Below are positions 5,526 through 39,967 of a stretch of DNA of 50,950 bases, in pieces. The DNA is from a virus (Duplodnaviria; Caudoviricetes), in the IMG/VR virus record IMGVR_UViG_3300025160_000002, positions 1 to 50,950 of that record; one strand, 5' to 3'. The notes beneath the pieces were generated by a model, which was given only the letters and a program-made list of their open reading frames with translations, was not told the origin of the DNA and made no database searches. Within the stretch, counting starts at the first letter, position 1. Each line of letters begins with the position of its first letter. The translations under genes were made by a program, and so were the position numbers.

Positions 5526-5590
5526 ATAAGTAGTTGATTTACTTGTTCTTTTAATTCTTGAATTTTAGACATAGTATGCCTCAACGATAG

Positions 5591-5950
5591 TCTGTTACTC
5601 AGAAATCACTTAGCTACTCATAACGCCCCCAAAAGGGGCTATTCGTAGACAAAGTGAGCCCTATGTACATCGGGTAAATATACCAGGTGTACTTAGAATT
5701 CTATGTAACAGAGATTTCTCTCCAGAATTGGTTTCAACTATATCTATATCAGCGGAACAGTATTTTCGGAACTGAGCAAAACCGTTTACTTCGGGAGTTA
5801 TGGTCCCCATTACCCATTACACTTGTAGGCTATTACGCCACTCGGTAGTAATCACCCCTAACGCTGCTTATCCCTGGGCTAGGTCAATTATAGTGAAACA
5901 CTAGTTCCTTGGCTTAACATCCGGGAGCTAGTAAGTAGGATGCAAGGGTT
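5591..5950 (+). ncRNA. Candidate structured non-coding element
   Basis: No long ORF; nested stems TCTGTTAC/GTAACAGA (5591-98/5705-12), TCACTT/AAGTGA, GCCCC/GGGGC, GTACATC/GGTGTAC, ACTAGTTCCTTGG/CCGGGAGCTAGT; G-U pairs fit the + strand. Confidence 0.4.
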
Positions 5951-5995
5951 GTATAGGTTGGCAGTAAATTTATACTTTTCATACCCTCTCTACTC

Positions 5996-6023
5996 TTAGA
6001 CGCCAAAAACGGTAAAAAGTTTA
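5996..6023 (-). promoter_or_regulatory. ECF (sigmaE/AlgU-type) promoter driving the late operon
   Basis: TAAACTT-N16-TCTAA on the minus strand; 28 bp identical to 20291-20318. Confidence 0.8.
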
Positions 6024-6197
6024 CCATTTTTGAAAATATATTTTTAGAGGGGTCTAAATTCTGGTGTAGTTTGTAGAGAGTTAAGTCTTAAATTGCGTAA
6101 GTTCAGTAGGTAGGCAGGTGTAAATCTATGTAAAACTAAGGTAAACAGCTTAGAATAAGCCTTTTAGAGGTGAGCGAAGGTAGTAAAATGAAAGATG

Positions 6198-6301
6198 TAA
6201 CTCCTTGATTTTTATCTATTTTTCTAGTAGCGTGGCAGATGTGCTCCTAATCTTATAACATGCATCAAGATGTTTCCCCCACCCCCTCTAACTTCTTGAT
6301 T
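6198..6301. promoter_or_regulatory. Two IHF consensus sites (6198-6210 and 6289-6301)
   Basis: TAACTCCTTGATT and TAACTTCTTGATT match YAANNNNTTGATW; further matches at 5527-5539 and 17731-17743. Confidence 0.55.
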
Positions 6302-6702
6302 CTAAAGGCTTTCTCTATACCTTGTATAGCTATACCCTTGCTTATAGTGTGTCTTTTGCTATACGTTAGTAAAACTATCTTATGTCAATGTGTAATTGGA
6401 ATAGTTACACATATACCCTATACTCTAGAATACTAATATGTTACCTTTCGTAACACTTCCTATACATATCACCGTTTATCCGACTGTTTATACCGTCCAT
6501 CTGTTAGAGCTTGCACTACTCGCGCAACAGTTTATCTTGTGCCTTGAACACCTGAACGCCTCTACAGGTAAATGTTTAGAGGGTATAGTCGGAACGGCCG
6601 ATGGTGGCGAGAGGATAATCCCCCGCACCGGAGGGACACAAAAGACTGAACCCGACCTAGTATCTTAGCTTATGGGTAGGCATACCCATAGGAGCACACA
6701 CG

Positions 6703-6900
6703 ATGCGTAAACTTTCATACGATGAAATAACCGAAGTCTTTACCTTGCAAGTCTCGGATGAATACGGGGATGATATCACTAGCTTTACTATCCCAGACTA
6801 TGCTACCAGCTTTAATATCTATGGTTTTGATTGCACAGCACTAAAGCAGTTAGTTAAGCAGTACAGACAACGGCAGGTTCACGCTGACCGTACCGTCTAG
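6703..6900 (+). CDS. Early hypothetical protein
   Basis: AGGAG RBS upstream; ORF bracketed by a long-range stem. Confidence 0.75.
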   Translation: MRKLSYDEITEVFTLQVSDEYGDDITSFTIPDYATSFNIYGFDCTALKQLVKQYRQRQVHADRTV

Positions 6901-6963
6901 TCACTCACTATCCTACCCATAATCTAGGGTACTAGGTTACTTTTCTTATCTGAGGGTTAGGTC

Positions 6964-7119
6964 ATGTTTACTATCTTAATGGACGTAGTAACTGGATTAG
7001 CTTACGGCTTTCTATACGTAGGGCTCTTTATCGTTCTCAACCTGCTTGTTATTCTTTTGTTAGGGCTCGTTGGGTATGGTTTTCGCTTTGTCCTATATAT
7101 AATAGATAGGACACTATGA
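6964..7119 (+). CDS. Small membrane protein (51 aa, below ORF-track cutoff)
   Basis: GAGGG upstream; MFTILMDVVTGLAYGFLYVGLFIVLNLLVILLLGLVGYGFRFVLYIIDRTL; ATGA overlap with the next gene. Confidence 0.65.
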   Translation: MFTILMDVVTGLAYGFLYVGLFIVLNLLVILLLGLVGYGFRFVLYIIDRTL

Positions 7120-8643: not shown

Positions 8644-8714
8644 TGGCCTGTAATTCAATGGTAGAATAGGCTCCTTATAAGAGCCTTATCTAGGTTCAAC
8701 TCCTAGCAGGCCAA
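8644..8714 (+). tRNA. tRNA-Ile, anticodon UAU (no encoded CCA)
   Basis: Acceptor TGGCCTG/CAGGCCA, D arm ATTC/GAAT, anticodon stem GGCTC/GAGCC with loop CT-TAT-AA, T arm CTAGG-TTCAACT-CCTAG, discriminator A. Confidence 0.92.
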
Positions 8715-8720
8715 CTCTTT

Positions 8721-10164: not shown

Positions 10165-10452
10165 ATGTTTAACATTTATCCTCGTAAGCAAGTTAGTCCG
10201 CATCTTAGGGGGGCACCTAAGCCCTATATGTATCGAAAACCTGGCGGAAAAATATACAAACTAAAGAAGCGCCCAGGTACATTTTCCCTTTCAAATCAAG
10301 TAGTTTGGGATAGTTTTCAAAAACGTATTCTAGAATATATTACAGTCAAAGGCGTGACTGTTCGAGAAGGTATTAAACATGGGCGTGTTAGTATTAATCA
10401 TCAATCCTTTAGAGTTAAACAATTAGGAACTAAAGCATGGATGACTATATAA
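10165..10452 (+). CDS. Basic hypothetical protein
   Basis: GAGGG RBS; packed operon. Confidence 0.6.
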   Translation: MFNIYPRKQVSPHLRGAPKPYMYRKPGGKIYKLKKRPGTFSLSNQVVWDSFQKRILEYITVKGVTVREGIKHGRVSINHQSFRVKQLGTKAWMTI

Positions 10453-13609: not shown

Positions 13610-14741
13610 TACTAAGTCTGTAGGACAAGTATTTCATCAAAGAGAGAATATAAGAACCTATAAAGAGGATTTTTATTGGGTATTACCAGATACAATGGTT
13701 GGAGTTGAAATAGAAGTAGAAGGAGCTAGGGATATTATAACTGGAAAGAGTGGTTTATGGGAAAAGGTGCATGACGGTAGTTTACGACAAGTTAAGGAAG
13801 CAGATCCTTATGAACTACGGTTCTTAGAACCTCTTTGTGGTTATGATTTAAGTACAGCATTAAATATTTTTGAAAAGGGGCTGCGAATTCTTAAAGAGCC
13901 TCCAGTTTGGAGTGCTCGAACCAGTGTGCATGTTCATTTAAATATGATAGAAATGTCATTAGAACAATTACTTAGCTTTATAATTTATTACACAGTCTTT
14001 GAAAAAAGTTTGTTTCGTTATGCAGGTAAAGAAAGAGAAAACAATACGTACTGTTTACCTTATTATAAAGCAGAAGGAGTTCTGTTTGAAGCATTATCTA
14101 TTGACAGTATAACGAACCCTACAGCTATATATACAATTTCTAATGAGAATTACAGATATGCAGCATTAAATTTAGCTGCTTTAAAGAAATTTGGGACAGT
14201 AGAATTTAGACATATGGGAGGTACTTCGGATGTGCATAAAATTAGAAACTGGATTAATATTATTTTTTGTCTTAAAAAATATTCTTTAATTAATACCACT
14301 TTAGATTTAACGGAAATTCCTCAGTTCTTTTCAGCAAAGGGCATGAAAAATTGTGCTGAAGAAGTATTTGGAAAGTATTTATCTTTACTAGATTACCCTG
14401 AATTTAATATTGATATGTTAAATGGTATTAGATTAGCTCAAGATATTATATATAGATCTAACCTGGTTGAATCTTCTACAAAACTAAAACAATCAGGAAC
14501 TAACTTTAGTTCAAGAATAAAAAAATATGCAGAAAATAAACACATAAATCTAAGCCCCGTTGAGCAAGTAAATACTCCACAGAAGACGAAGAGGAAACCG
14601 AGTACGGCAGGGGAGATAATCATTGAAGAGGCTCGTGAATTCGCCGGGTTTAATATCAACGACCCAAACAATTTCGTTGTACAAGAGGCGCGTGAGACAA
14701 GATTGAACTTAGAAGATAACGACGAAGAGGATGGTAACTAA
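13602..14741 (+). CDS. Putative amidoligase
   Basis: VGVEIEVE, HDGSLR, RTSVHVH, RYAALN, GTVEFRH; start set at ATG 13602. Confidence 0.9.
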   Translation: MANTKSVGQVFHQRENIRTYKEDFYWVLPDTMVGVEIEVEGARDIITGKSGLWEKVHDGSLRQVKEADPYELRFLEPLCGYDLSTALNIFEKGLRILKEPPVWSARTSVHVHLNMIEMSLEQLLSFIIYYTVFEKSLFRYAGKERENNTYCLPYYKAEGVLFEALSIDSITNPTAIYTISNENYRYAALNLAALKKFGTVEFRHMGGTSDVHKIRNWINIIFCLKKYSLINTTLDLTEIPQFFSAKGMKNCAEEVFGKYLSLLDYPEFNIDMLNGIRLAQDIIYRSNLVESSTKLKQSGTNFSSRIKKYAENKHINLSPVEQVNTPQKTKRKPSTAGEIIIEEAREFAGFNINDPNNFVVQEARETRLNLEDNDEEDGN

Positions 14742-16066
14742 TGTGTGGAATTTTTGGAATAGTATCCTTTGACGACAAGATCCTGAATAACAAAAAAGAT
14801 TTCTTTTATCAAGCGTTAATAACAAACAGCTTGAGGGGGATGCACGGTACTGGAATTTGCACAGTATCTAAAGAAAATAATGTGGAAGTGTATAAAAAAG
14901 CTATGTCTGGTTATGATTTTACGCATTTACCAAGAACTACCTTTCTTTTAAATGATTTTAAATCCTTAAAGTATGCTATAGGACATAATAGACATGCTAC
15001 AAAGGGTGATCTTTCAGATATTAACAGTCATCCCTTTATTGAAGATAATATTACATTAGTACATAATGGGAATATACTATGGATGCATACTCTAGATGTT
15101 CCTAATGCATATCAAGACTATAATGTAGATAGCCATATACTTACGAAGGCATTTGCTTTGCATGGTTATAAAGCAACTATTCCTAGAATAGAAGGTGCCG
15201 CAGCTTTAGCATGGTTTGATTCCAGCGCTGGTACATTTCATTTATATAGAAATAAAGAACGCCCTATGTATTTTTCTGCTGTGAAAAATAGTGATACTAT
15301 TATATTCGGCAGTGAATTAAAAATGATTAACTGGTTAGCTGAGCGCAATGGTATTGAGGTTAAAAAATCTTTTTATTTAGAAGACGATATGGTAATTACA
15401 TTTAAAGATAGTATTAAATATACTAAAGAACTTATCAAACCTACCCCTAAACAACCAATTCCAGTCTATAATTGGAACAATAAACCAATACCTGCTATAG
15501 AGCATATCGCTAGTAATCAAAGACTTACTTCTAATAGTAAATTAGGAGATTATAATCTAAAGATAGGTCAATTAATAGAGTTTGCGTTTGAAGAAATGTG
15601 CTACAACAATCATAAATCTAGACACGGAGATTTAGTTGGTAGAATTTTAATACCCCCTTACCCTGCTGTAATAGCTAGAGGGATTAAAAGGGATGAATTT
15701 AAAGGGGATTATGTGTTAGAAGGGAGAGTTCTACATGCAGAGTATGACCCTAAATATAAATGTATAATGGTTCATTTAGGTGCAGTAAAACAAACTAATC
15801 AAGCTGATACTGGGCAAGCACTAGTATATGAAGACGGACCAGGAGCAGATGATAACGACGGAGAAACAGTAACAACATATGTTGCAGGCCCGTTAGGGCA
15901 CCTGATTACTATAGATCAATTTAAATTGTGGGTTAAAGATGGTTGTGTTAATTGTAGAGCAGATATTACAGAGGATATGGTACATGCTCTTAGATGGACT
16001 CATGCGAATCAACCAGTATGTTATGGTTGCCAAACTAATCCAGCTATAACCCCTTATTTACATTAG
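14741..16066 (+). CDS. Class II (Ntn) glutamine amidotransferase
   Basis: MCGIFG, RGMHGTG, GHNRHAT, HPF, HNG, RNKERPM; C-terminal CxxC...CxxC. Confidence 0.92.
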   Translation: MCGIFGIVSFDDKILNNKKDFFYQALITNSLRGMHGTGICTVSKENNVEVYKKAMSGYDFTHLPRTTFLLNDFKSLKYAIGHNRHATKGDLSDINSHPFIEDNITLVHNGNILWMHTLDVPNAYQDYNVDSHILTKAFALHGYKATIPRIEGAAALAWFDSSAGTFHLYRNKERPMYFSAVKNSDTIIFGSELKMINWLAERNGIEVKKSFYLEDDMVITFKDSIKYTKELIKPTPKQPIPVYNWNNKPIPAIEHIASNQRLTSNSKLGDYNLKIGQLIEFAFEEMCYNNHKSRHGDLVGRILIPPYPAVIARGIKRDEFKGDYVLEGRVLHAEYDPKYKCIMVHLGAVKQTNQADTGQALVYEDGPGADDNDGETVTTYVAGPLGHLITIDQFKLWVKDGCVNCRADITEDMVHALRWTHANQPVCYGCQTNPAITPYLH

Positions 16067-16075
16067 GATAAAGAT

Positions 16076-16912
16076 ATGACAACAGCAGTTATTCTTAGAC
16101 GTAAGAAGTTAGGTAAAACTTCGTGTAATGGTATAGTTGGTTTTAGTCACTCTAATGTACAAGTAGTGCGTAACGATGCTGTTATTCCTAAAGCAGATGT
16201 ATATATTAGATGGGGATGTACTTCACCTATACCATACACAGAGAACCGTATTATTTTAAACCTGGCTCAGGCAATTCATATTGTAGGAGATAAGGCAGGA
16301 TTTAGAGCAATTTTGGATGAGGATGCACTATGCCCCCTTACTTGGTTTGATTGGGCCCATGTTCCACCACAAGCATTTCCTGTAGTTGTTCGCCCTCAAG
16401 TACACGCGCAAGGCAAGCAGGTGTATTTCTGTGAGAATTCAGTACAGATGTTTACTGCTATCGAGAAATGCGGTCCTGGTTATTATATATCTAAGTTTAT
16501 TGATAAAGTAGCAGAATATAGAGTATTTGTAGCTCAAGGACGGGCAGTATGGGTAGTTAAGAAAACCCCAGGTAATCCTGAGGATGTAGCATGGAATGTA
16601 GCTAGAGGTGGAAGATTTGATAATGTTAGTTGGAACAACTGGCCCCTTAAAGGGGTTAAATTAGCAATAGGAGGATTTCTATTATCTGGGTTAGATTTTG
16701 GTGGGGTAGATATAATGATTGATGCACAAAATAATTGGTATATATTAGAAATTAATTCTGCACCTTCTCAAACCTCTCCCTACAGGCAGAAGTGTGTTGC
16801 TAAAGTATTTGATTATATTATAGAAAATGGGAAAGATATTATACCCCTAGTAAGGAGACCTGGGGGGTATCTTAAATTTATTCATCCTGCTCTTGACTAC
16901 TCTGCTTATTAA
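16076..16912 (+). CDS. RimK-like ATP-grasp ligase
   Basis: IRWG, EYRVFV, WN, GLDFGGVDI, ILEINSAP. Confidence 0.9.
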   Translation: MTTAVILRRKKLGKTSCNGIVGFSHSNVQVVRNDAVIPKADVYIRWGCTSPIPYTENRIILNLAQAIHIVGDKAGFRAILDEDALCPLTWFDWAHVPPQAFPVVVRPQVHAQGKQVYFCENSVQMFTAIEKCGPGYYISKFIDKVAEYRVFVAQGRAVWVVKKTPGNPEDVAWNVARGGRFDNVSWNNWPLKGVKLAIGGFLLSGLDFGGVDIMIDAQNNWYILEINSAPSQTSPYRQKCVAKVFDYIIENGKDIIPLVRRPGGYLKFIHPALDYSAY

Positions 16913-16928
16913 TTAAGGGTGTATACAA

Positions 16929-17273
16929 ATGGTATATTCAAGCTACTATGGGGACGTATATTACGAAGCCCAATGTTTGTTCGGGTGTTGTAGTATATTG
17001 GAAATAAGTTGTGTCCAGATAAAACCTCACAAGGATAAAGATATTATATCTTTATATAAGGAATTTGATTCTTATATTAAAAATAATATTATAGCTAGTA
17101 TTAATATGTTTATTATGACAGATAAAGATAGAAAGTATACGACCGAACCTTCAATTTATGATTTTTGTATTAAGATGAAATGGAAGGTATTAGAAGTATT
17201 TCAAAGTTGTCATGATCGGCGCAATGTTGTTATGTTTGGGTATAATAGGAGTACGGATAATGAGCAGGTTTAA
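16929..17273 (+). CDS. Degenerate GNAT-like protein with CCS motif
   Basis: GCCSILEIS; C-terminal KWKVLEVF resembles 11686-12195. Confidence 0.55.
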   Translation: MVYSSYYGDVYYEAQCLFGCCSILEISCVQIKPHKDKDIISLYKEFDSYIKNNIIASINMFIMTDKDRKYTTEPSIYDFCIKMKWKVLEVFQSCHDRRNVVMFGYNRSTDNEQV

Positions 17274-17733
17274 TTCACCTAGTAAAAGCGGTTATGTTAA
17301 ATTTAAGTCTCAGAAATTAGCTAGCTGTTGTGGTGTAGCTTTAGTACATAGTGTGACTTTTTATCCAGTCTCCATTAAGGGGTATAAACAGAAAGAATTT
17401 ATGAATAAAAGGTGGAATCCTTCTATCGGATTTGTGTATGTTAAAGAGACATATCCGACAGCGATTTACTTAAAACCCAAGGAAATTAAAAAACATTTAC
17501 TAACTTTATATACTGAATTTTTTATATTTTTAAAAACGTGCAACAAATTAAAGTCTTTAAATCGCGCTAAAGTACTATTAGCAGACTATGTTAGGGGTGA
17601 TATCAGTGCATTTGTAAAAGCTACTGGAGGGAAAAAAGCAGGCTGGATGATTGATAAACCAGTCTATAATCTGTTCAGCAACCGTTTCGACGTAGTATAT
17701 ACCTTAAACAGGGAAGTACTACATAGGCACTAA
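17260..17733 (+). CDS. Degenerate GNAT-like protein with CCG motif
   Basis: SCCGVALVH; C-terminal GWMIDKPVYN; start set at ATG 17260 after AGGAG. Confidence 0.55.
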   Translation: MSRFNSPSKSGYVKFKSQKLASCCGVALVHSVTFYPVSIKGYKQKEFMNKRWNPSIGFVYVKETYPTAIYLKPKEIKKHLLTLYTEFFIFLKTCNKLKSLNRAKVLLADYVRGDISAFVKATGGKKAGWMIDKPVYNLFSNRFDVVYTLNREVLHRH

Positions 17734-17798
17734 GTTGTTGATTTAAAAGCAAAAGTAAAAAGTTTACTGAATTATGAAAATAAATATAAATATATTTA

Positions 17799-17826
17799 TA
17801 AACTTTTGTTCATATTTGGCGTCTAA
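17799..17826 (+). promoter_or_regulatory. ECF (sigmaE/AlgU-type) promoter
   Basis: TAAACTT-TTGTTCATATTTGGCG-TCTAA; same boxes and 16-nt spacer as 5996-6023 and 20291-20318. Confidence 0.75.
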
Positions 17827-17831
17827 TATAT

Positions 17832-17995
17832 TAGGAGCCTCAAGGAATGTATCTATACGTGAGTACATGGATGTACGAACGATACTTCCAATCAGGGATG
17901 ATAGCCCTAGCGGCGATTGCGCGTGTGAAGGCATGGATGCCGAAACGATACCTGGTTTCTTGTGTGGCTGGACGGATACAGACACACGTATGCAG
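17832..17995 (+). ncRNA. Candidate CsrA/RsmA-binding RNA (CsrB/RsmY/RsmZ-like)
   Basis: 7 GGA in about 145 nt, 5 as ANGGA; hairpins GTACA-TGGA-TGTAC, ATCA-GGGA-TGAT, GGCA-TGGA-TGCC. Confidence 0.7.
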
Positions 17996-18034
17996 AGGTA
18001 AATATCAACAGAGATAACCAACATAGGTGAACAT

Positions 18035-18508
18035 ATGAAAACACTAAATATACTAGATAAATATCTTACTATTGTATCTTCATTACTAGATATAAATAAA
18101 GAAGAGTTATTAATTACTGTTGACAAGGAAATAATAGGCAGTTTGCCTGATTATACAAAACCCGAATTTCCTGTAAATTGGTCTTTAGGTACGTATGAAC
18201 TAGTAACTAAGGAGAATAAACTAATTGCATCCTGGGAGCTATACCAAATGCCACATTGTTGTGGAATAATGGTTTCTACAAAAGCTTTTGTAGTTGAGCA
18301 GTATAGAGGTAAAAGGGTAGGAGGAGTATTAAATCAATTAAGACAAGATATAGGTACACACCTTGGATTTTCATTAATGTTTTGCACAGATATTGTACAA
18401 AATATACACCAAAGACAGTTATTGAACACTCAAGGTTTTCAAGATATTTATGCGTTTGTTAATAGACGAACAACAAATACAGTTATTCTTTCAGTAATTA
18501 ATTTATAA
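18035..18508 (+). CDS. GNAT-like protein with CCG motif (paralog of 11686-12195)
   Basis: LYQMPHCCGIM, VVEQYRGKRVGGVL. Confidence 0.72.
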   Translation: MKTLNILDKYLTIVSSLLDINKEELLITVDKEIIGSLPDYTKPEFPVNWSLGTYELVTKENKLIASWELYQMPHCCGIMVSTKAFVVEQYRGKRVGGVLNQLRQDIGTHLGFSLMFCTDIVQNIHQRQLLNTQGFQDIYAFVNRRTTNTVILSVINL

Positions 18509-18685
18509 ATGCTCCTGTTACAAACACTAATAAAGACTGGAAAGATATTACTTCAATGCCCGAAGTGTAGTATTAAATTCTACTGGTCTACTGTAAGGAA
18601 GAAGATTAAATGTCCTGGGTGCAACTTACTTTCTAGTACGAGGTTTTATGCGAGAGCAAATAAGAGTAATGGGAATGCAGCTTAA
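18509..18685 (+). CDS. Small zinc-ribbon protein (58 aa, below cutoff)
   Basis: ATG abuts the previous stop; CPKC...CPGC. Confidence 0.55.
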   Translation: MLLLQTLIKTGKILLQCPKCSIKFYWSTVRKKIKCPGCNLLSSTRFYARANKSNGNAA

Positions 18686-19424
18686 CGTAGGAGATTCTAA
18701 ACGATTCCATTGTCCTTTCTGCCTAGCTACCCATGAAAAATCTTTAACAATTACTAGAACGCCTGCTGGTTTATTGTATATTTGTTTCCGGGCTAAATGC
18801 AATGCTCAAGGTATAGTAGGCGATATACGCATGGAACCTATAAAGAATAAAGTCTTTGTTCCACAGATAATTACCGAGCCTCTTGTTACGTTACCAGAAG
18901 ATATATATAATAAATATTTAGCACAATATAATCTTGACTATCAAGATTGGAATATATTGCACCATGTTAAATGGGCTCCAGGAAGTAACTCATTATATTT
19001 TCCTATGTATAATCCGTGGGGAGCATTGATAGGGGCTCAGCTTAAACGTTTAGATAAACATATACCCAAAGTACTAACATTTAGATATACGGAAGAACCA
19101 TTAGTACACTTCCCATTAGATGTTCTTAAAGAATATGTCGAATTAGTCGTAGTGGAAGATTTTATATCTGCTGCTGTAGTGCATGAAGTTTCCCCTGTAT
19201 GTTCGATTAATGGCACGAATATAACTAAAGATATGCTAAAGCTGTTCAAGATAATAGGGGTTACGAATCTTATCTTAATGCTTGATGGTGATGCAGTAGC
19301 TAAAGCTGTTACTATAAAAAAATCAATAGGTCCGTTATTTAAATCTTGTAGAATTATACCTTTACCAGTCGGTACTGATCCTAAAGATTTATCATATAAA
19401 CAACTTGAGAGATATCTGATATGA
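18648..19424 (+). CDS. DNA primase (Zn finger plus TOPRIM)
   Basis: CPFC...CFRAKC; VVVED; LMLDGDA; DPKD. Confidence 0.88.
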   Translation: MREQIRVMGMQLNVGDSKRFHCPFCLATHEKSLTITRTPAGLLYICFRAKCNAQGIVGDIRMEPIKNKVFVPQIITEPLVTLPEDIYNKYLAQYNLDYQDWNILHHVKWAPGSNSLYFPMYNPWGALIGAQLKRLDKHIPKVLTFRYTEEPLVHFPLDVLKEYVELVVVEDFISAAVVHEVSPVCSINGTNITKDMLKLFKIIGVTNLILMLDGDAVAKAVTIKKSIGPLFKSCRIIPLPVGTDPKDLSYKQLERYLI

Positions 19425-19433
19425 GTATTTAAT

Positions 19434-20075
19434 ATGATACATACGGTATTATTTATACTACTATTTTTACCTGTTAACCTGATGGCAGGTCATTCATTAA
19501 GTCAATATGCCTCAGAGATGGAGATTAAGTACCAACTCCCTAAGGACTTACTAGTAAACATCTGTACTGTGGAGTCTAATTGGAGGAATGTTAAAGGACT
19601 ACATGGAGAGCTGGGAGTATGCCAATTACGTCCAAGTTCTGTTAAACACGCCTTTCCAGACCTCACTAGAACCTCTACAAGCTATTATAAGATAGGGGAT
19701 AAGGGGGTAGGTAGGATACAGTATAAACTATCGCTCTTAGGGGTTCCTACGAAGGTTACTGATGTATATGATCTACAGACCATAGTATCAGTTAGGGCTT
19801 TTCAGAATGAGCATAAATTAGTAGTTGATGGTATAGTTGGCCCAAAGACTTGGGATAAACTCATGGGCACTCCCTTCCCTAAAGCTACTTTAGAAGATAA
19901 GTTATGGAATCCTAAAGATAATATAGAAATAGCAGCGATGTATATAGCTAGGCTAAGTAGGATATTAGATACTACTGATCCTAGTATTCTAGCTGTAGCG
20001 TATAATGGGGGAGAAAAGAGTTGGCCGGTTAAGTACTTGAAAAAACTTGAGAAATTAAATAGGGGTATACAATGA
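19434..20075 (+). CDS. SLT-like lytic transglycosylase with inserted peptidoglycan-binding domain and N-terminal signal
   Basis: VES, GVCQL, AYNGG; VRAFQNEHKLVVDGIVGPKTW. Confidence 0.85.
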   Translation: MIHTVLFILLFLPVNLMAGHSLSQYASEMEIKYQLPKDLLVNICTVESNWRNVKGLHGELGVCQLRPSSVKHAFPDLTRTSTSYYKIGDKGVGRIQYKLSLLGVPTKVTDVYDLQTIVSVRAFQNEHKLVVDGIVGPKTWDKLMGTPFPKATLEDKLWNPKDNIEIAAMYIARLSRILDTTDPSILAVAYNGGEKSWPVKYLKKLEKLNRGIQ

Positions 20076-20290: not shown

Positions 20291-20318
20291 TAAACTTTTT
20301 ACCGTTTTTGGCGTCTAA
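20291..20318 (+). promoter_or_regulatory. ECF (sigmaE/AlgU-type) promoter for the middle/replication genes
   Basis: TAAACTTTTTACCGTTTTTGGCGTCTAA, exact inverted copy of 5996-6023. Confidence 0.8.
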
Positions 20319-27012: not shown

Positions 27013-27258
27013 ATGGCAACGGTAGAAGATACGATAGTAAAAGAAGTGATGAAAAAGGCAGTTAAAGGAATAGATTTAAATGCGTTAGCTGTAAAACTAC
27101 AACCTAAAATAGAGCAAGAAATTATAGCTGCTGTATTTATGGTGTTAAAGGACGAGCAACCTTTTTATGACGCTGTAAATAACTTTTTGGAGAGCAAAGT
27201 ATTTACTGCTGTAGTAGAAACGAAACTAAAACAAGCATTCGGAGTTACCCAATCATGA
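27013..27258 (+). CDS. Hypothetical protein
   Basis: GGAG RBS before ATG 27013. Confidence 0.7.
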   Translation: MATVEDTIVKEVMKKAVKGIDLNALAVKLQPKIEQEIIAAVFMVLKDEQPFYDAVNNFLESKVFTAVVETKLKQAFGVTQS

Positions 27259-27818
27259 GTGATATTATTAAAGGTGTAGTTGAAGCAGTTAATAGAGTTG
27301 ATGGACCAAAGGTCGGGGATAAACCTAAATGGAAAAAGGTTTCTATTAAACTAAAGGGTGAATGGTATGGAGGTTTTCTTAACTCAAATGATACGGATGA
27401 TCGTAACAAAGTAGCAGAAGGGGATGCTGTAATATTATCATTTGTTAAGAATGGACGCTATATGAATATAGAAGAACTTAAAATTGACACGTCTGTTCCA
27501 AAGGTTGTGGCACCAGAAGCCAAAGTAGCAGTAGTTACTACAGAATATGTACCATCTAACATTCGAGATATCCGTATAACTGTAGCCGGTTCTCGTAATG
27601 CTGCTCTTGAGTTTATCCGGTTAGCTTTAGATAAGGAAGTAATTACTCTTAAAGCGAAGAAAGTGGGGGATCGCGTAGATGAACTATTAGATCATGTTAA
27701 TTATTTTACTGAGGTTTTTGCTAAGCAAACACTTAATGCGACAGATGTAGCGTTGCTAGGTGCTAACTCAAATAAAAACACTACTGAAAAGGAAGCTGAT
27801 GACAGTTATACTGAGTAA
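27255..27818 (+). CDS. Putative single-stranded DNA-binding protein
   Basis: OB-like N-terminus (GEWYGG), acidic tail, position between polymerase and exonuclease. Confidence 0.55.
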   Translation: MSDIIKGVVEAVNRVDGPKVGDKPKWKKVSIKLKGEWYGGFLNSNDTDDRNKVAEGDAVILSFVKNGRYMNIEELKIDTSVPKVVAPEAKVAVVTTEYVPSNIRDIRITVAGSRNAALEFIRLALDKEVITLKAKKVGDRVDELLDHVNYFTEVFAKQTLNATDVALLGANSNKNTTEKEADDSYTE

Positions 27819-29637: not shown

Positions 29638-29950
29638 ATCGAAGATCAAAGGCTACCATTATGAAGTATCAGTTAGAGATAAACTATTGGCTGAGGGTAT
29701 TCCTGCTGAACGTGTTATTGGATCAGGTATGTTTGGTGGTAAGTACACCGGTGATGTCGTTATACCAAACATTGAACATCCCGAATTTGTCTGCGAATGC
29801 AAAAAAAGAAAAGATGGGGCAGGGTTTGTAGTCTTAGAGAAGTGGATGAAAGATAAAGATGTTATGTTTTTAGCACGTGATAGGCAAGAATCAATGGTAG
29901 TGCTTAGTTGGACTACTTATATAAAGTTAATGAAGAAATTTTATGAATAA
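29627..29950 (+). CDS. Holliday junction resolvase-like PD-(D/E)xK nuclease
   Basis: KSKIKGYHYE, GDV, ECKKRK. Confidence 0.82.
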   Translation: MSSKSKIKGYHYEVSVRDKLLAEGIPAERVIGSGMFGGKYTGDVVIPNIEHPEFVCECKKRKDGAGFVVLEKWMKDKDVMFLARDRQESMVVLSWTTYIKLMKKFYE

Positions 29951-30152
29951 AGATGGTGAATTCATATATACTAATCTATCTCCACATGGATGTAGAGATT
30001 GTGGGGAAATAAATAAAGATTATACTGGGGCGTTAACTGGTAGAAAGATATGTTCTGAATGCGGAGGTCTAGTATTAAATCTTCAAGAAGCATTTGATTA
30101 CATAATGCAGTTACATGCGTCTATGGACGGTGCGATGGATAAAGAATGGTAA
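29943..30152 (+). CDS. Zn-ribbon hypothetical protein
   Basis: CRDC...CSECGG. Confidence 0.65.
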   Translation: MNKDGEFIYTNLSPHGCRDCGEINKDYTGALTGRKICSECGGLVLNLQEAFDYIMQLHASMDGAMDKEW

Positions 30153-38789: not shown

Positions 38790-39967
38790 TATTCTTTAAC
38801 TTCGGTCCCATCTGCATAATAATATTTACCTTCTGGACTTAAATATAAAGGTTTTCCTGTTTTCTTATGAACAAGAGGTTGTCCCCCCGGGCTTTTAGCA
38901 CGATCTAACATTGGTACATCTTTACCAAACCCATTATTAAGTATAGTTGCTCTTTCGACAGGAGTTATTTCACCCTCTTCAAACGCTGCCGCTACTTCTT
39001 TTTCACTATTAAAATAACGAGCAGGTTTATCAAGTTGCTTATCCCACCACGAAGTCTTTACTGGGGGTAAAGTACGCGACATTAGGTTACCGATAATAGT
39101 ATCTCTAGCCTCTTCATATGAAGGGGGTTCTTCTCCTTGGTTAACTGCTTTCTGTTGTTCATCTAATATACCATTTGCAATAGATACTTTAAGACTATTA
39201 AGTTGATCTGGTTTCATGCCTTCAAATTCAGTGATTGAAGCTAAGTATGCTCCAGCTTGTTGAATATCCGTAGGTCCAGCTTTTTTAGGAGTCTTAGGTT
39301 TAATACCCCCTTTACGTTCTGTTGCAGCTTTAATACTTTCTCTAGATTTAGTAAGTTCAGTCCATTGTTGTAATTGAACTTCTTTATTACGACCTAACAT
39401 CATCATTTGTTCGTCATTTAGTTCTTGTACATCACCATCCTTTTGGGTCACTTTAACATTCCCGTTAGGTAGCATTTCTAAATTTTGAACTTGATTTTCC
39501 TTATCAGCGTATTTATTAAATAAGCCGATAGTACCTTTAATATCTTTGGTTGCTTTAAGATAATCCCAAGCTCTTGTAACAACCTCAGTATTTAAAAGAT
39601 CCTTTTTAAGTGGTTGTGCTTTGACTTTTAATTCTAAATCTAAATTGGCTGAATCTAATTGATTTTTAGCAGTTTCTAAACTTAGTTGAGTTTGACGAAA
39701 AGCGTTAGCTTTCTCTGGAGAGATTGCATCTAACTTTGTAGCATATAGCTCTGGATCAAACTTAGTAGTTGTGTCTACTCCTAGATCAGGTAAATCTGGA
39801 TTAGTAGATCTTGGTGTTTGTGTAGTTACAAAAGAAGTATCTCTAGCTGTTCTTATATCTTCTTTCTCTTTGCGTTGTTGTCGAACCTCAGCTAACTGCT
39901 CCAAGGTTAAAGCTCCTTGGACACCCTTCATGAAACTATCGTATAGATTAGGAGCTTGATAAGGCAT
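38789..39967 (-). CDS. Internal virion / ejection protein
   Basis: Synteny; helical, Q/E/K-rich. Confidence 0.65.
   Translation of the reverse strand: MPYQAPNLYDSFMKGVQGALTLEQLAEVRQQRKEKEDIRTARDTSFVTTQTPRSTNPDLPDLGVDTTTKFDPELYATKLDAISPEKANAFRQTQLSLETAKNQLDSANLDLELKVKAQPLKKDLLNTEVVTRAWDYLKATKDIKGTIGLFNKYADKENQVQNLEMLPNGNVKVTQKDGDVQELNDEQMMMLGRNKEVQLQQWTELTKSRESIKAATERKGGIKPKTPKKAGPTDIQQAGAYLASITEFEGMKPDQLNSLKVSIANGILDEQQKAVNQGEEPPSYEEARDTIIGNLMSRTLPPVKTSWWDKQLDKPARYFNSEKEVAAAFEEGEITPVERATILNNGFGKDVPMLDRAKSPGGQPLVHKKTGKPLYLSPEGKYYYADGTEVKE

What the first reader, a model, noticed from the sequence alone, without database searches (positions are those of the whole stretch)
17832..17995. Candidate phage-encoded CsrA/RsmA sponge RNA
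Seen: a GC-richer intergenic island holds 7 GGA in about 145 nt (17834, 17844, 17869, 17896, 17935, 17970, 17974), 5 of them ANGGA. Three are perfect CANGGAUG hairpins with different stem sequences but conserved pairing: GTACA-TGGA-TGTAC (17863-76), ATCA-GGGA-TGAT (17891-902), GGCA-TGGA-TGCC (17930-41). A fourth loop, GACGGATA, is closed by CTG/CAG. Both CATGGATG hairpins are followed by AACGATAC, and ATACGTG (17855-61) can pair with CACGTAT (17985-91) to close the domain. It begins a few bases after the promoter at 17799-17826 and has an IHF consensus upstream (17731-43). Established: A/U-CANGGANG-U/A in hairpin loops is the high-affinity CsrA/RsmA/RsmE site, and tandem copies define CsrB/RsmY/RsmZ. 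Inference: the phage titrates the host global translational regulator. I do not know of a described phage-encoded Csr sponge, but cannot verify novelty. No terminator is visible, so it may act as a 5' leader of the GNAT-primase transcript.
Basis: partly seen in the sequence, partly recalled or inferred. Interest (0 to 1): 0.9.

Follow-up and report, generated by a model that had tools for sequence, protein, structure and literature searches.

The report
Phage leader RNA with CsrA-type hairpins
A soil and groundwater phage carries, between a promoter-like motif and its replication genes, a short non-coding stretch with three hairpins that look like ideal binding sites for the bacterial regulator CsrA, so it may bind or soak up that regulator, but this is not yet shown.

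Summary
The sequence features are real and at the stated coordinates. GGA density alone is unremarkable: 797 of 20,000 local shuffles reach 7 GGA. Three CANGGAUG hairpins within 75 nt never arose in those 20,000 shuffles, and they are 3 of only 10 NGGA tetraloop hairpins in the 50,950-bp genome.

The stretch is not coding. Natural variants shift or truncate both + strand ORFs, and neither ORF has a protein family. It lies directly after a 28-nt promoter-like motif found exactly three times in the genome. No terminator follows, so it reads as a roughly 200-nt 5' leader of a GNAT-fold gene and the primase gene.

No Rfam Csr/Rsm model matches, even at E<=10. No relative with the same downstream gene has the array. 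The host is unknown, so whether it has csrA is unknown.

Best reading (0.4): a leader RNA that binds CsrA-family dimers through decoy-type sites. A true titrating sponge is possible (about 0.2) but unproven. Six literature searches found no phage-encoded Csr decoy RNA.

The parts
17799..17826 (+). Promoter-like 28-nt motif TAAACTTTT-N7-TTTGGCGTCTAA. It can be read as a -35-like TAAACT, a 17-nt spacer and a -10-like TCTAAT (17822-27). The inferred start of the RNA is near 17834.
   Evidence: Exactly 3 copies in the window (5996-6023 on the - strand, 17799-17826 on +, 20291-20318 on +) against 0.01 expected. The other two copies are followed within 13-15 nt by a Shine-Dalgarno sequence and an ATG. 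The sigma-70 scan did not list it. The promoter function and the start site are inferred.
17833..17846 (+). 5'-proximal AGGAG and AAGGA (GGA at 17834 and 17844). They are Shine-Dalgarno-like and lie in front of ATG 17847.
   Evidence: GGA 17834 is predicted unpaired (0.88-1.0). GGA 17844 is predicted paired with UUCC 17886-89, but that partner is changed in the X11 variant. With HP1 these sites meet a re-implemented published CsrA-target rule for the start at 17847.
17847..18017 (+). Short open frame. It is 56 aa here and is not conserved as a protein.
   Evidence: 0 hits among 1.84 billion cluster representatives. Its length becomes 34 or 17 aa in the natural variants. The overlapping 75-aa frame (17774-18001) becomes 48, 34, 80 or 58 aa.
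17863..17876 (+). HP1, GUACA-UGGA-UGUAC. It can open to the hexaloop AUGGAU on a 4-pair stem.
   Evidence: Pair probability 0.98. The X12 variant has 17876 C>T, which turns the closing G-C into G-U.
17891..17902 (+). HP2, AUCA-GGGA-UGAU.
   Evidence: Pair probability is only 0.23-0.26, because it competes with an AGGG/CCCU hairpin. It is unchanged in all variants seen.
17930..17941 (+). HP3, GGCA-UGGA-UGCC.
   Evidence: Pair probability 0.65-0.66. It is unchanged in X12 and X7; the X11 contig ends at 17935, inside it.
17962..17987 (+). HP4, GUGUG-g-CUG / GACGGAUA / CAG-a-CACAC. The 8-nt loop holds ACGGAU.
   Evidence: GGA 17974 is predicted unpaired at 0.97-0.99. It is unchanged in the X7 contig.
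17859..17951 (+). Two 27-nt direct-repeat modules (17859-85 and 17925-51, 74% alike, 66 nt apart). Each module is a CAUGGAUG hairpin followed by GA(A)ACGAUAC, and each is followed by a second GGA hairpin (HP2, HP4).
   Evidence: The reading as two two-hairpin units is inferred.
17832..18034 (+). The whole element: a GC-richer, non-coding leader of about 200 nt between the promoter-like motif and the next gene.
18035..18508 (+). First gene after the leader, a 157-aa protein with a GNAT acetyltransferase fold. The primase gene follows at 18648-19424.
   Evidence: No Pfam or PHROG hit. The model has pLDDT 73. Foldseek matches GNAT acetyltransferases at E about 1e-6 and TM about 0.6. The primase matches PHROG 47 at 1.3e-23. 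The Shine-Dalgarno sequence of this gene (AGGUG) holds no GGA.

Best explanation
The stretch 17832-18034 is a non-coding, structured 5' leader RNA of the phage's GNAT-primase transcription unit. It starts a few bases after a phage promoter-like motif.

It carries a compact array of CsrA/RsmA-type sites. Three are near-ideal hairpins (CANGGAUG, which can open to an ANGGAU hexaloop on a stem). A fourth ACGGAU sits in an 8-nt loop. AGGAG and AAGGA lie at the 5' end.

Most likely mechanism (inferred): dimers of a CsrA-family protein of the host clamp pairs of sites, HP1 with HP2 (GGAs 27 nt apart) and HP3 with HP4 (39 nt apart). The 5' sites together with HP1 cover the start of a short, non-conserved frame.

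The sites are of the high-affinity decoy type, and none overlaps the ribosome-binding site of the real downstream gene. The leader therefore looks more like a decoy embedded in an mRNA than like a classical repressed target. It would hold CsrA while it is abundant. It could also tie the stability or read-through of the replication-gene transcript to the host's CsrA activity.

Shown here: the sequence pattern, its rarity, the non-coding status and the position after the repeated motif. Inferred: transcription, the start site, CsrA binding and any effect on the host.
For: - Three CANGGATG tetraloop hairpins lie in 75 nt. 0 of 20,000 shuffles reach 3. They are 3 of 10 such hairpins genome-wide and 3 of 5 CANGGATG in the window.
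- The outer stem pairs differ between the copies but always pair: 12 of 12 cells, and 2 of 4 pairs have three pair types each. 13 of 500 shuffles score as high.
[quoted passage not shown] It also matches the 8-nt-loop variant described for RsmZ SL1 (passages of PMC4005645).
- Spacings of 27 and 39 nt lie within the 10-60 nt bridged by one dimer (passages of PMC4066749).
- E. coli CsrB, run through the same script, shows the same kind of hairpin (for example caucAGGAUgaug), 6.0 GGA per 100 nt against 4.2 here, and the same GC of 0.51.
- HP1, HP3 and the HP4 loop are predicted to be exposed.
- The stretch is not coding. The 56-aa frame has 0 hits. The 75-aa frame has only 3 near-identical hits, 2 of which carry a frameshifted chimera. 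Variants change the frame lengths to 48, 34, 80 or 58 aa and to 34 or 17 aa.
- None of the 7 variable places seen (17876, 17888, 17889, 17890, 17920, 17951; 17722 and 17729 lie outside) touches a GGA loop. 17876 C>T keeps the pairing as G-U.
- It lies on the sense strand 8 nt after a 28-nt motif present exactly 3 times. The other two copies have their ATG 13-15 nt downstream, so the 200-nt leader here is an extra.
- 34 of 55 uncurated gene starts have a Shine-Dalgarno-like tetramer. The nearest cultured relatives infect Proteobacteria.
Against: - No Rfam family matches at E<=10, either on 2 kb or on the 241 nt alone.
- Folding energy is ordinary: z = -1.32, and 24 of 200 shuffles fold at least as well.
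- HP2 forms in only about a quarter of the ensemble, and GGA 17844 is predicted paired.
- There are only 3-4 good sites, against 14 of 22 in CsrB.
- No terminator on the + strand in 17300-18700, so no discrete small RNA can be read from the sequence.
- No GGA lies at the ribosome-binding site of gene 18035, which fails the target rule. That rule is itself loose: 4 of 57 starts pass.
- 0 of 11 related loci scanned have a CANGGATG array. Where the homologous gene exists, its upstream region is different.
- The variants are too close to test covariation. The near-identity of 17674-18452 in run X7, and of 17787-18928 in L021, also covers 418-894 nt of coding sequence. It therefore points to mosaic exchange rather than to selection on the RNA.
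- The host is unknown. Some Betaproteobacteria lack chromosomal csrA (Burkholderia cepacia and B. cenocepacia; passage of PMC7366521), and the best portal match is an Alcaligenes phage.
- In Serratia the Rsm pathway regulates CRISPR-Cas expression (start of the abstract of PMC8450108). Perturbing CsrA would therefore also touch host defence there, and the direction of that effect was not checked.
Confidence: 0.4

Rival explanations
1. It is a structured leader RNA that works without CsrA. The hairpins would be bound by another RNA-binding protein, for example a phage translational or antitermination factor such as the basic zinc-ribbon ORF at 18509-18685. Alternatively they would serve as processing or stability signals for the polycistronic transcript.
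For: - The conserved tail GA(A)ACGAUAC after both CAUGGAUG hairpins, part of a 27-nt direct repeat, is not explained by CsrA recognition.
- GAUAC recurs in the HP4 loop.
- There is no Rfam Csr match.
- The array is lineage-specific, as phage-specific operators usually are.
Against: - No candidate RNA-binding protein was identified. Pfam and PHROG gave nothing for the neighbouring genes, and the phage has no CsrA-like gene.
- 17951 C>A alters the conserved tail in natural variants.
- The a-priori match to the CsrA high-affinity motif would then be a coincidence occurring three times over.
Confidence: 0.2
2. It is a DNA-level element: a replication origin or operator next to the primase gene. 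The inverted repeats and the 27-nt direct repeats would be protein-binding sites, and the AT-rich stretch 17735-17830 would be the unwinding region.
For: - The position is just upstream of the replication genes.
- A strongly AT-rich palindromic tract (GC 0.10-0.23) adjoins a GC-rich repeat block.
- A reverse copy of the TAAACTTTT box lies at 17758-66.
Against: - The shared half-sites are only CA/TG, the centres (NGGA) are asymmetric, and the outer arms differ while staying complementary. This fits single-strand hairpins and not a duplex-binding dimer.
- 17876 C>T keeps a G-U pair only on the + strand RNA.
- All three sites lie on the sense strand, after a promoter-like motif.
- Cumulative GC skew turns near 6 kb and 34 kb, not at 17.8 kb. 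This is confounded by the strand switches of transcription at the same places.
Confidence: 0.12
3. It has no present function. It would be a decaying remnant of a small acquired gene or moron cassette (promoter, Shine-Dalgarno sequence, ATG 17847), and the hairpins would be leftovers of an internal duplication.
For: - ATG 17847 sits where the first genes of the other two motif copies start. It has one of the few AGGAG sites in the genome (2 of 55 gene starts).
- The two repeats are in frame, reading WMYERY and WMPKRY.
- The frame is broken in the variants.
- The array is absent from relatives.
- The foreign-looking GC content fits an acquired piece.
Against: - A duplication does not explain HP2.
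- A duplication does not explain stems that differ yet stay complementary.
- A duplication does not explain 0 of 20,000 shuffles reaching the pattern.
- The stretch is kept at 97% or more in every run that holds it. One of those relatives has an ATP-grasp gene piece only 81% identical, though coverage there is patchy.
Confidence: 0.15
4. It encodes a small protein, from either the 75-aa or the 56-aa frame.
For: - Open frames exist in both frames.
- AGGAG lies 9 nt before ATG 17847.
- Gene callers have called the 75-aa frame in three metagenome contigs.
Against: - 0 hits for the 56-aa frame in 1.84 billion representatives.
- No Pfam or PHROG hit for the 75-aa frame.
- A 1-nt deletion at 17890 is seen independently in a Logan contig and in two database proteins. 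With stops created by 17876 C>T, 17920 C>A and 17951 C>A, it reshapes both frames.
- A GC-rich island in an AT-rich genome is open in several frames by composition alone; four frames are open here.
Confidence: 0.05

Closest known systems
Csr/Rsm decoy small RNAs (CsrB, CsrC, RsmB of enterobacteria; RsmX, RsmY, RsmZ of Pseudomonas)
   Same: - Several GGA triplets are presented in short hairpin loops of the ANGGAX type.
- GGA density is similar: 4.2 per 100 nt against 6.0 in E. coli CsrB.
- GC is the same (0.51), and individual hairpins are nearly the same (passages of PMC4005645).
- By recollection, the size and site number are closer to RsmY/RsmZ than to CsrB.
   Different: - No covariance-model match to any Rfam family.
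- No intrinsic terminator, so by sequence it is not a discrete small RNA.
- No GacA/UvrY-type upstream palindrome (motif recalled).
- It sits in a lytic-type phage genome after a phage promoter-like motif.
- Only 3-4 strong sites.
CsrA-bound mRNA leaders (glgC, cstA, pgaA, hcnA; recalled: the flhDC leader protected from RNase E, and the Salmonella fim leader that sequesters CsrA)
   Same: - It is a 5' leader with several A(N)GGA sites 10-60 nt apart.
- One pair of sites lies at a Shine-Dalgarno sequence and start codon (17833-46 before ATG 17847).
- That start passes a re-implemented CSRA_TARGET rule (rule from passages of PMC4066749).
   Different: - The start that passes belongs to a non-conserved short frame.
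- The real downstream gene (18035) has no GGA at its ribosome-binding site and fails the rule.
- The sites are of the optimal decoy form, not the weaker mRNA form.
Phage- and plasmid-borne csrA genes
   Same: Mobile elements are already known to interfere with the Csr system. 30 of 2517 phage genomes carry a csrA allele (passages of PMC7366521).
   Different: Those elements carry the protein. This phage has no CsrA-like gene and would carry the RNA ligand instead. The supplementary tables of that paper were not seen.
Phage RNA decoys of host proteins (recalled, no call: pseudo-ToxI repeats of phage PhiTE against ToxN; RNA anti-CRISPRs that mimic CRISPR repeats)
   Same: A phage-encoded repetitive structured RNA that mimics the natural RNA ligand of a host protein.
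   Different: The target protein is different. Those mimics are near-copies of a host sequence. Here no host counterpart was found: the 29-nt core has no match in genome contigs.

Membership tests
Csr/Rsm decoy sRNA families of Rfam (CsrB, CsrC, RsmX, RsmY, RsmZ and relatives) | Match to a family covariance model | tested here: not met
   cmscan at E<=10 gave no hit in the element, either on 17000-19000 (3 unrelated weak hits elsewhere) or on 17800-18040 alone (0 hits). At the gathering threshold the whole window gave only the tRNA.
Csr/Rsm decoy sRNA (functional class) | Multiple GGA motifs exposed in hairpin loops of the ANGGAX type | tested here: met
   Three CANGGAUG hairpins plus ACGGAU in an 8-nt loop. 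4 of 7 GGA lie in loops, against 14 of 22 in E. coli CsrB by the same script. Exposure is predicted for HP1, HP3 and HP4, and is weak for HP2.
Csr/Rsm decoy sRNA (functional class) | Discrete small transcript with its own promoter and an intrinsic terminator | tested here: not met
   A promoter-like motif is present. No terminator-like site lies on the + strand in 17300-18700, and there is no U-run after 17987.
Csr/Rsm decoy sRNA (functional class) | GacA/UvrY-type upstream activating palindrome (motif recalled from memory) | tested here: not met
   None of the 29 matches with up to 3 mismatches lies between 16063 and 25333. 37 matches are expected by chance.
Csr/Rsm decoy sRNA (functional class) | Binds CsrA/RsmA and relieves repression of its targets | not testable with these tools
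   This needs EMSA or ITC and a reporter. The complex-prediction tool takes proteins only.
Csr/Rsm decoy sRNA (functional class) | Host possesses a CsrA-family protein | not testable with these tools
   The host is unknown. The record is an uncultured virus from soil and groundwater runs. The nearest cultured relatives are at 35-45% identity and infect Alcaligenes, Vibrio, Xanthomonas and Stenotrophomonas. The phage itself has no csrA.
CsrA-repressed mRNA leader (CSRA_TARGET rule of PMC4066749) | A(N)GGA overlapping the Shine-Dalgarno region of the regulated gene, with at least 3 primary sites and at least 2 pairs 10-60 nt apart | tested here: inconclusive
   My re-implementation passes the short frame at 17847 (3 primary sites, 3 pairs) and fails gene 18035 (no site at its Shine-Dalgarno sequence). 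4 of 57 starts pass with 100 nt upstream and 5 of 57 with 200 nt, so the rule is loose.
Protein-coding gene | Reading frame kept in relatives, and homologs exist | tested here: not met
Replication origin with iterons | Repeated duplex binding sites beside an AT-rich tract, and a skew or mapping signal | tested here: inconclusive
   One 27-nt direct repeat at 74% and an adjacent AT-rich tract. No skew turn at 17.8 kb. The stems covary in the way single-strand hairpins do.

The most novel reading that the evidence does not exclude
This is a genuine phage-encoded Csr/Rsm decoy. During infection the abundant leader, or a fragment processed from it, would titrate the host's CsrA-family regulator. 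That would either reprogram host carbon flow and translation in favour of replication, or neutralise a CsrA-controlled or CsrA-like defence function. It would be the RNA counterpart of the csrA genes already known on phages, and it would have evolved independently of CsrB/RsmXYZ.
Probability: 0.2. Interest if true: 0.85.

Novelty: new variant of a known kind. Interest (0 to 1): 0.6.

Why it matters
CsrA/RsmA is one of the main post-transcriptional regulators of bacteria. Its only known RNA antagonists are chromosomal (a few plasmid-linked) decoy RNAs and some mRNA leaders. Phages are known to carry csrA genes (PMC7366521, passages).

Six full-text searches and the passages read turned up no phage-encoded Csr decoy RNA. 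The library lacks most subscription journals, so this is not proof of absence.

If the element binds CsrA, it would show that a virus can manipulate or sense this global regulator with 160 nt of RNA. It would also give a minimal natural decoy of two two-hairpin units, and it would justify a systematic search for GGA-hairpin arrays in phage leaders.

If it does not bind CsrA, it is still a rare, clearly non-random structured leader in front of the replication genes of an uncultured phage lineage.

Tried and rejected
**Homologs of the element**
- blastn of 17400-18500 against 50,697 phage records: no match.
- The 29-nt core: none in viral contigs or genome contigs.
- CATGGATG-N4-AACGATAC in viral contigs: 13 single-copy stretches. 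By eye none has a second copy or a hairpin array, and several share one coding context.
38 loci have 3 full sites within 200 nt. Only L034 has extended stems, and that is a coding DTDVESE tandem repeat.
- The promoter motif in genome contigs: none.

**Relatives found through neighbouring proteins**
- Single-protein scans with the 157-aa, 173-aa and primase proteins found nothing.
- The alignment A1 gave 6 viral and 8 metagenome loci. Five contig lengths (147916, 69814, 40083, 20707 and 4680) occur both among these loci and among the hits.
- The ATP-grasp protein gave 3 loci.
- 11 loci were scanned: L002-L007, L024, L026 and L029-L031. L021-L023, L025, L027 and L028 were left out of that count. 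Going by equal contig lengths and contig ranges, L022, L023, L025 and L028 repeat contigs already scanned. L027 has an upstream region almost identical to that of L026. L021 is identical to the window over the element.
- 0 of the 11 have tandem CANGGATG hairpins. Loose-definition clusters of 3 occur in 3 of 11: L002 at 5748, L026 at 2477 and L029 at 3610.
- L021 is 100% identical over 17787-18928, so it says nothing about selection.

**RNA evidence**
- No RNA holder is listed among the 12 runs.
- Read laying used contigs only, and parts without cover are not evidence.

**Other attempts**
- The minus-strand 120-aa frame: no protein hits.
- PDB sequence search with A1: only E = 0.38.
- tRNA and tmRNA: none at the element.
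- CRISPR-repeat mimic and type III antitoxin mimic were considered and dropped. The two modules are only 74% alike and are not tandem.
The 779-nt contig of P0002 (75% identical GNAT protein, with about 476 nt upstream), which would be the best comparator, could therefore not be read.
- The host could not be inferred.
Full report
**Setting**

The window is a complete virus record of 50,950 bp with direct terminal repeats. Near-identical DNA is held by 12 listed runs of 9 studies, all labelled soil or groundwater metagenomes.

Genes from about 7.1 to 34.6 kb lie on the + strand and the rest lie on the - strand. Around the finding lie:
- a glutamine amidotransferase (14741-16066) and an ATP-grasp protein (16076-16912);
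- two proteins with no family match;
- then a 157-aa protein (18035-18508), a primase (18648-19424) and a transglycosylase (19434-20075).

The 157-aa protein has no Pfam, PHROG or PDB sequence match. Its model (pLDDT 73) matches GNAT acetyltransferases by fold, at E about 1e-6 and TM about 0.6.

The nearest cultured phages are distant:
- portal: 45% to Alcaligenes phage vB_Af_QDWS535;
- DNA polymerase: 35% to VpV262-like Vibrio phages and to Xanthomonas and Stenotrophomonas phages.

**The observation**

The GC island is real: 0.49-0.55 against 0.23-0.40 around it.

The number of GGA is not special by itself:
- 7 or more occur in 797 of 20,000 dinucleotide-preserving shuffles of 17832-17995;
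- they occur in 1.2% of 165-nt windows on the + strand;
- with a loose definition (any GGA in a 4-8 nt loop closed by 4 pairs), a second cluster of three exists on the - strand at 39462.

What is special is the specific form. Three NGGA tetraloops are closed by C-A/U-G and by two or three further pairs.
- 0 of 20,000 shuffles have three such hairpins, and 0 have three CANGGATG.
- The whole genome holds only 10 such hairpins on both strands, and three are here.
- It holds five CANGGATG, all on the + strand, and three are here.
- Aligned on each other, the three copies keep C-G and A-U fixed. The two outer pairs take three different Watson-Crick forms each: 12 of 12 cells pair, and every slid control is at 50% or less.

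- The IHF consensus is present but at chance level: 7 against 4.76 expected.
- The proposed closing helix ATACGTG/CACGTAT is a perfect 7-mer complement. It overlaps the stem of the fourth hairpin and is not chosen in the minimum-energy fold.
- Overall folding energy is ordinary: z = -1.32 on the + strand and -0.97 on the - strand.

**Coding or not**

The island is open in four frames, as expected for a GC-rich patch in an AT-rich genome.
- The 56-aa frame has no relative among 1.84 billion representatives.
- The 75-aa frame has three hits, all near-identical at the DNA level. One has a single substitution. Two read the first 38 residues of this frame and then continue in the other frame.

Laying Logan contigs of four runs on 16500-19500 showed the same changes in the DNA:
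- 17888 C>A, 17889 C>G and a 1-nt deletion at 17890 (X11);
- 17876 C>T (X12);
- 17920 C>A (X11, X12, X7);
- 17951 C>A (X12, X7).

Applied in a script, these turn the 75-aa frame into 48, 34, 80 or 58 aa and the 56-aa frame into 34 or 17 aa. The deletion is seen in three independent sources, so it is not a read error. Neither frame is kept.

None of the changes touches a GGA loop. The one change inside a hairpin (17876) turns the closing G-C of HP1 into G-U. With so few changes this is compatible with an RNA constraint but does not prove one. If 7 changes fell at random in 160 nt, about a third of the time none would hit the 24 core bases (my arithmetic).

**Conservation**

I could not show selective conservation.
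- L021 is identical to the window over 17787-18928. All 49 differences in the 1,619-nt aligned block lie beyond 18928.
- In X7, a 779-nt contig (17674-18452) has 4 differences. The other nine laid contigs are 5-15% different.
- In both cases the identical block includes hundreds of coding bases, so mosaic exchange explains it better than selection on the RNA.
- In X11, the element piece (17806-17935) is 97% identical and an ATP-grasp piece (16567-16717) is 81% identical. Cover there is patchy and depth is about 3.

**Transcription context**

A 28-nt motif, TAAACTTTT-N7-TTTGGCGTCTAA, occurs exactly three times with no mismatch: at 5996-6023 (- strand), 17799-17826 (+) and 20291-20318 (+). 0.01 copies are expected. 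It can be read as a -35-like and a -10-like hexamer 17 nt apart, although the consensus scan did not list it.

At the other two copies, a Shine-Dalgarno sequence and an ATG follow within 13-15 nt. Here ATG 17847 follows after 19 nt, but the first conserved gene starts about 200 nt further on. The element is thus an insertion between a repeated regulatory motif and its gene, on the sense strand.

No terminator-like site lies on the + strand between 17300 and 18700. I therefore read the element as the 5' leader of the GNAT-primase unit and not as a discrete small RNA. The start near 17834 is an inference.

**What it resembles**

- If the A-U pair next to the loop opens, HP1, HP2 and HP3 become AUGGAU, AGGGAU and AUGGAU hexaloops closed by C-G on 3-4 further pairs.
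- HP4 carries ACGGAU in an 8-nt loop.
- From memory, the SELEX optimum for E. coli CsrA (RUACARGGAUGU) matches HP1 at 11 of 12 places. This comes from no call.

One CsrA dimer can bridge sites 10-63 nt apart (passages of PMC4066749). HP1-HP2 are 27 nt apart and HP3-HP4 are 39 nt apart. The 27-nt direct repeat 66 nt apart suggests a duplicated two-hairpin unit.

E. coli CsrB, taken from the K-12 record and run through the same script, has 22 GGA in 369 nt. 14 of them lie in short hairpin loops, and some hairpins are almost the same as HP2.

In the predicted ensemble:
- HP1 forms at 0.98;
- HP3 forms at 0.66;
- HP2 forms at only about 0.25;
- the HP4 loop GGA is free;
- GGA 17844 is paired.

**What does not fit a Csr sponge**
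- No Rfam family matches, even at E<=10 on the 241 nt alone.
- There is no terminator.
- No GacA/UvrY-type palindrome lies upstream (recalled motif).
- There are few sites compared with CsrB.
- The phage has no csrA of its own.
- The host is unknown.
- My re-implementation of the CSRA_TARGET rule passes the short frame at 17847 but fails gene 18035, whose AGGUG site holds no GGA. The rule is loose: 4 of 57 starts pass.
- The conserved tail GA(A)ACGAUAC after two hairpins is not explained by CsrA, and natural variants change its last base.

**Relatives**

Homologs of the 157-aa protein (42-51% identical) gave 6 viral and 8 metagenome loci, with overlap between the two lists. The ATP-grasp protein gave 3 more loci.

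Where the homologous gene exists, its upstream region is another gene or an unrelated spacer. 0 of 11 scanned loci hold tandem CANGGATG hairpins.

Pattern scans of the public collections found no copy of the element and no analogous non-coding array. As far as these collections show, the element is confined to this phage and its near-identical strains.

**Verdict**

The pattern is real, non-random and non-coding, and it sits in a transcribed-looking position on the sense strand.

The best single explanation is a leader RNA that binds CsrA-family dimers through decoy-type sites (0.4). Whether it titrates the regulator, senses it, or does both cannot be told from sequence.

The rivals are:
- another RNA-binding partner, or a processing signal (0.2);
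- a functionless remnant (0.15);
- a DNA-level origin or operator (0.12);
- a small protein (0.05).

**Literature**

Six searches and passages of five papers showed phage-borne csrA genes (30 of 2517 phage genomes, PMC7366521) but no phage-encoded Csr decoy RNA. The supplementary tables of these papers were not available. Subscription journals are mostly outside the library.

Noticed in passing
window 5996-6023 (-), 17799-17826 (+), 20291-20318 (+): A 28-nt motif, TAAACTTTT-N7-TTTGGCGTCTAA, is present exactly three times (0.01 expected). Each copy lies 13-19 nt before a Shine-Dalgarno sequence and an ATG. It is probably a class of phage promoters or regulator sites. A reverse copy of its first box lies at 17758-66.
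   Followed up: partly
window 5526-7115: This 1.6-kb stretch has no ORF of 100 aa or more and lies at the strand switch and the GC-skew minimum. From the motif copy at 5996-6023, a 22-aa frame and then about 400 nt of non-coding sequence run leftwards, with a GCCCC-UUUU-GGGGC hairpin near 5620-5640. The function is unknown, and the region could hold the origin or other RNAs.
   Followed up: partly
window 29979-29998 and 10436-10443: These are the two other CATGGATG sites of the genome, also on the sense strand. The first forms CUCcACA-UGGA-UGUaGAG about 40 nt into a small ORF that starts at 29944. The second overlaps a start codon preceded by AGGAA. They may be chance.
   Followed up: no
window 27287-27465: This is the only other region with 5 or more ANGGA in 165 nt on the + strand. 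It lies inside the ORF 27255-27818.
   Followed up: no
window 17674-18928; L021; run X7: Strains are mosaic. L021 is 100% identical over 17787-18928 and has 49 differences in the 477 nt beyond. X7 has one near-identical 779-nt contig among contigs that are 5-15% different. The promoter-leader-GNAT block seems to be exchanged between strains as a unit.
   Followed up: partly
window 18177-18150 (-): A strong sigma-70-like site (TTTACA, 16 nt, TATAAT; 11 of 12) lies on the antisense strand inside the GNAT-fold gene and points toward the element. Promoter-like sites are fewer than expected by chance in this AT-rich stretch (3 found, 6.2 expected).
   Followed up: no
window 8644-8715: tRNA-Ile with anticodon TAT. 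It is the only Rfam or ARAGORN hit in the genome.
   Followed up: no
window 17707-17727 and 18007-18027: A 21-nt direct repeat (71% alike) flanks the AT-rich tract, the motif and the element. It could be a scar of insertion of the cassette, or chance.
   Followed up: no
window 18509-18685: A 58-aa basic ORF with a CPKC...CPGC zinc ribbon lies between the GNAT-fold gene and the primase, and it overlaps the primase start. It is a possible nucleic-acid-binding protein.
   Followed up: no
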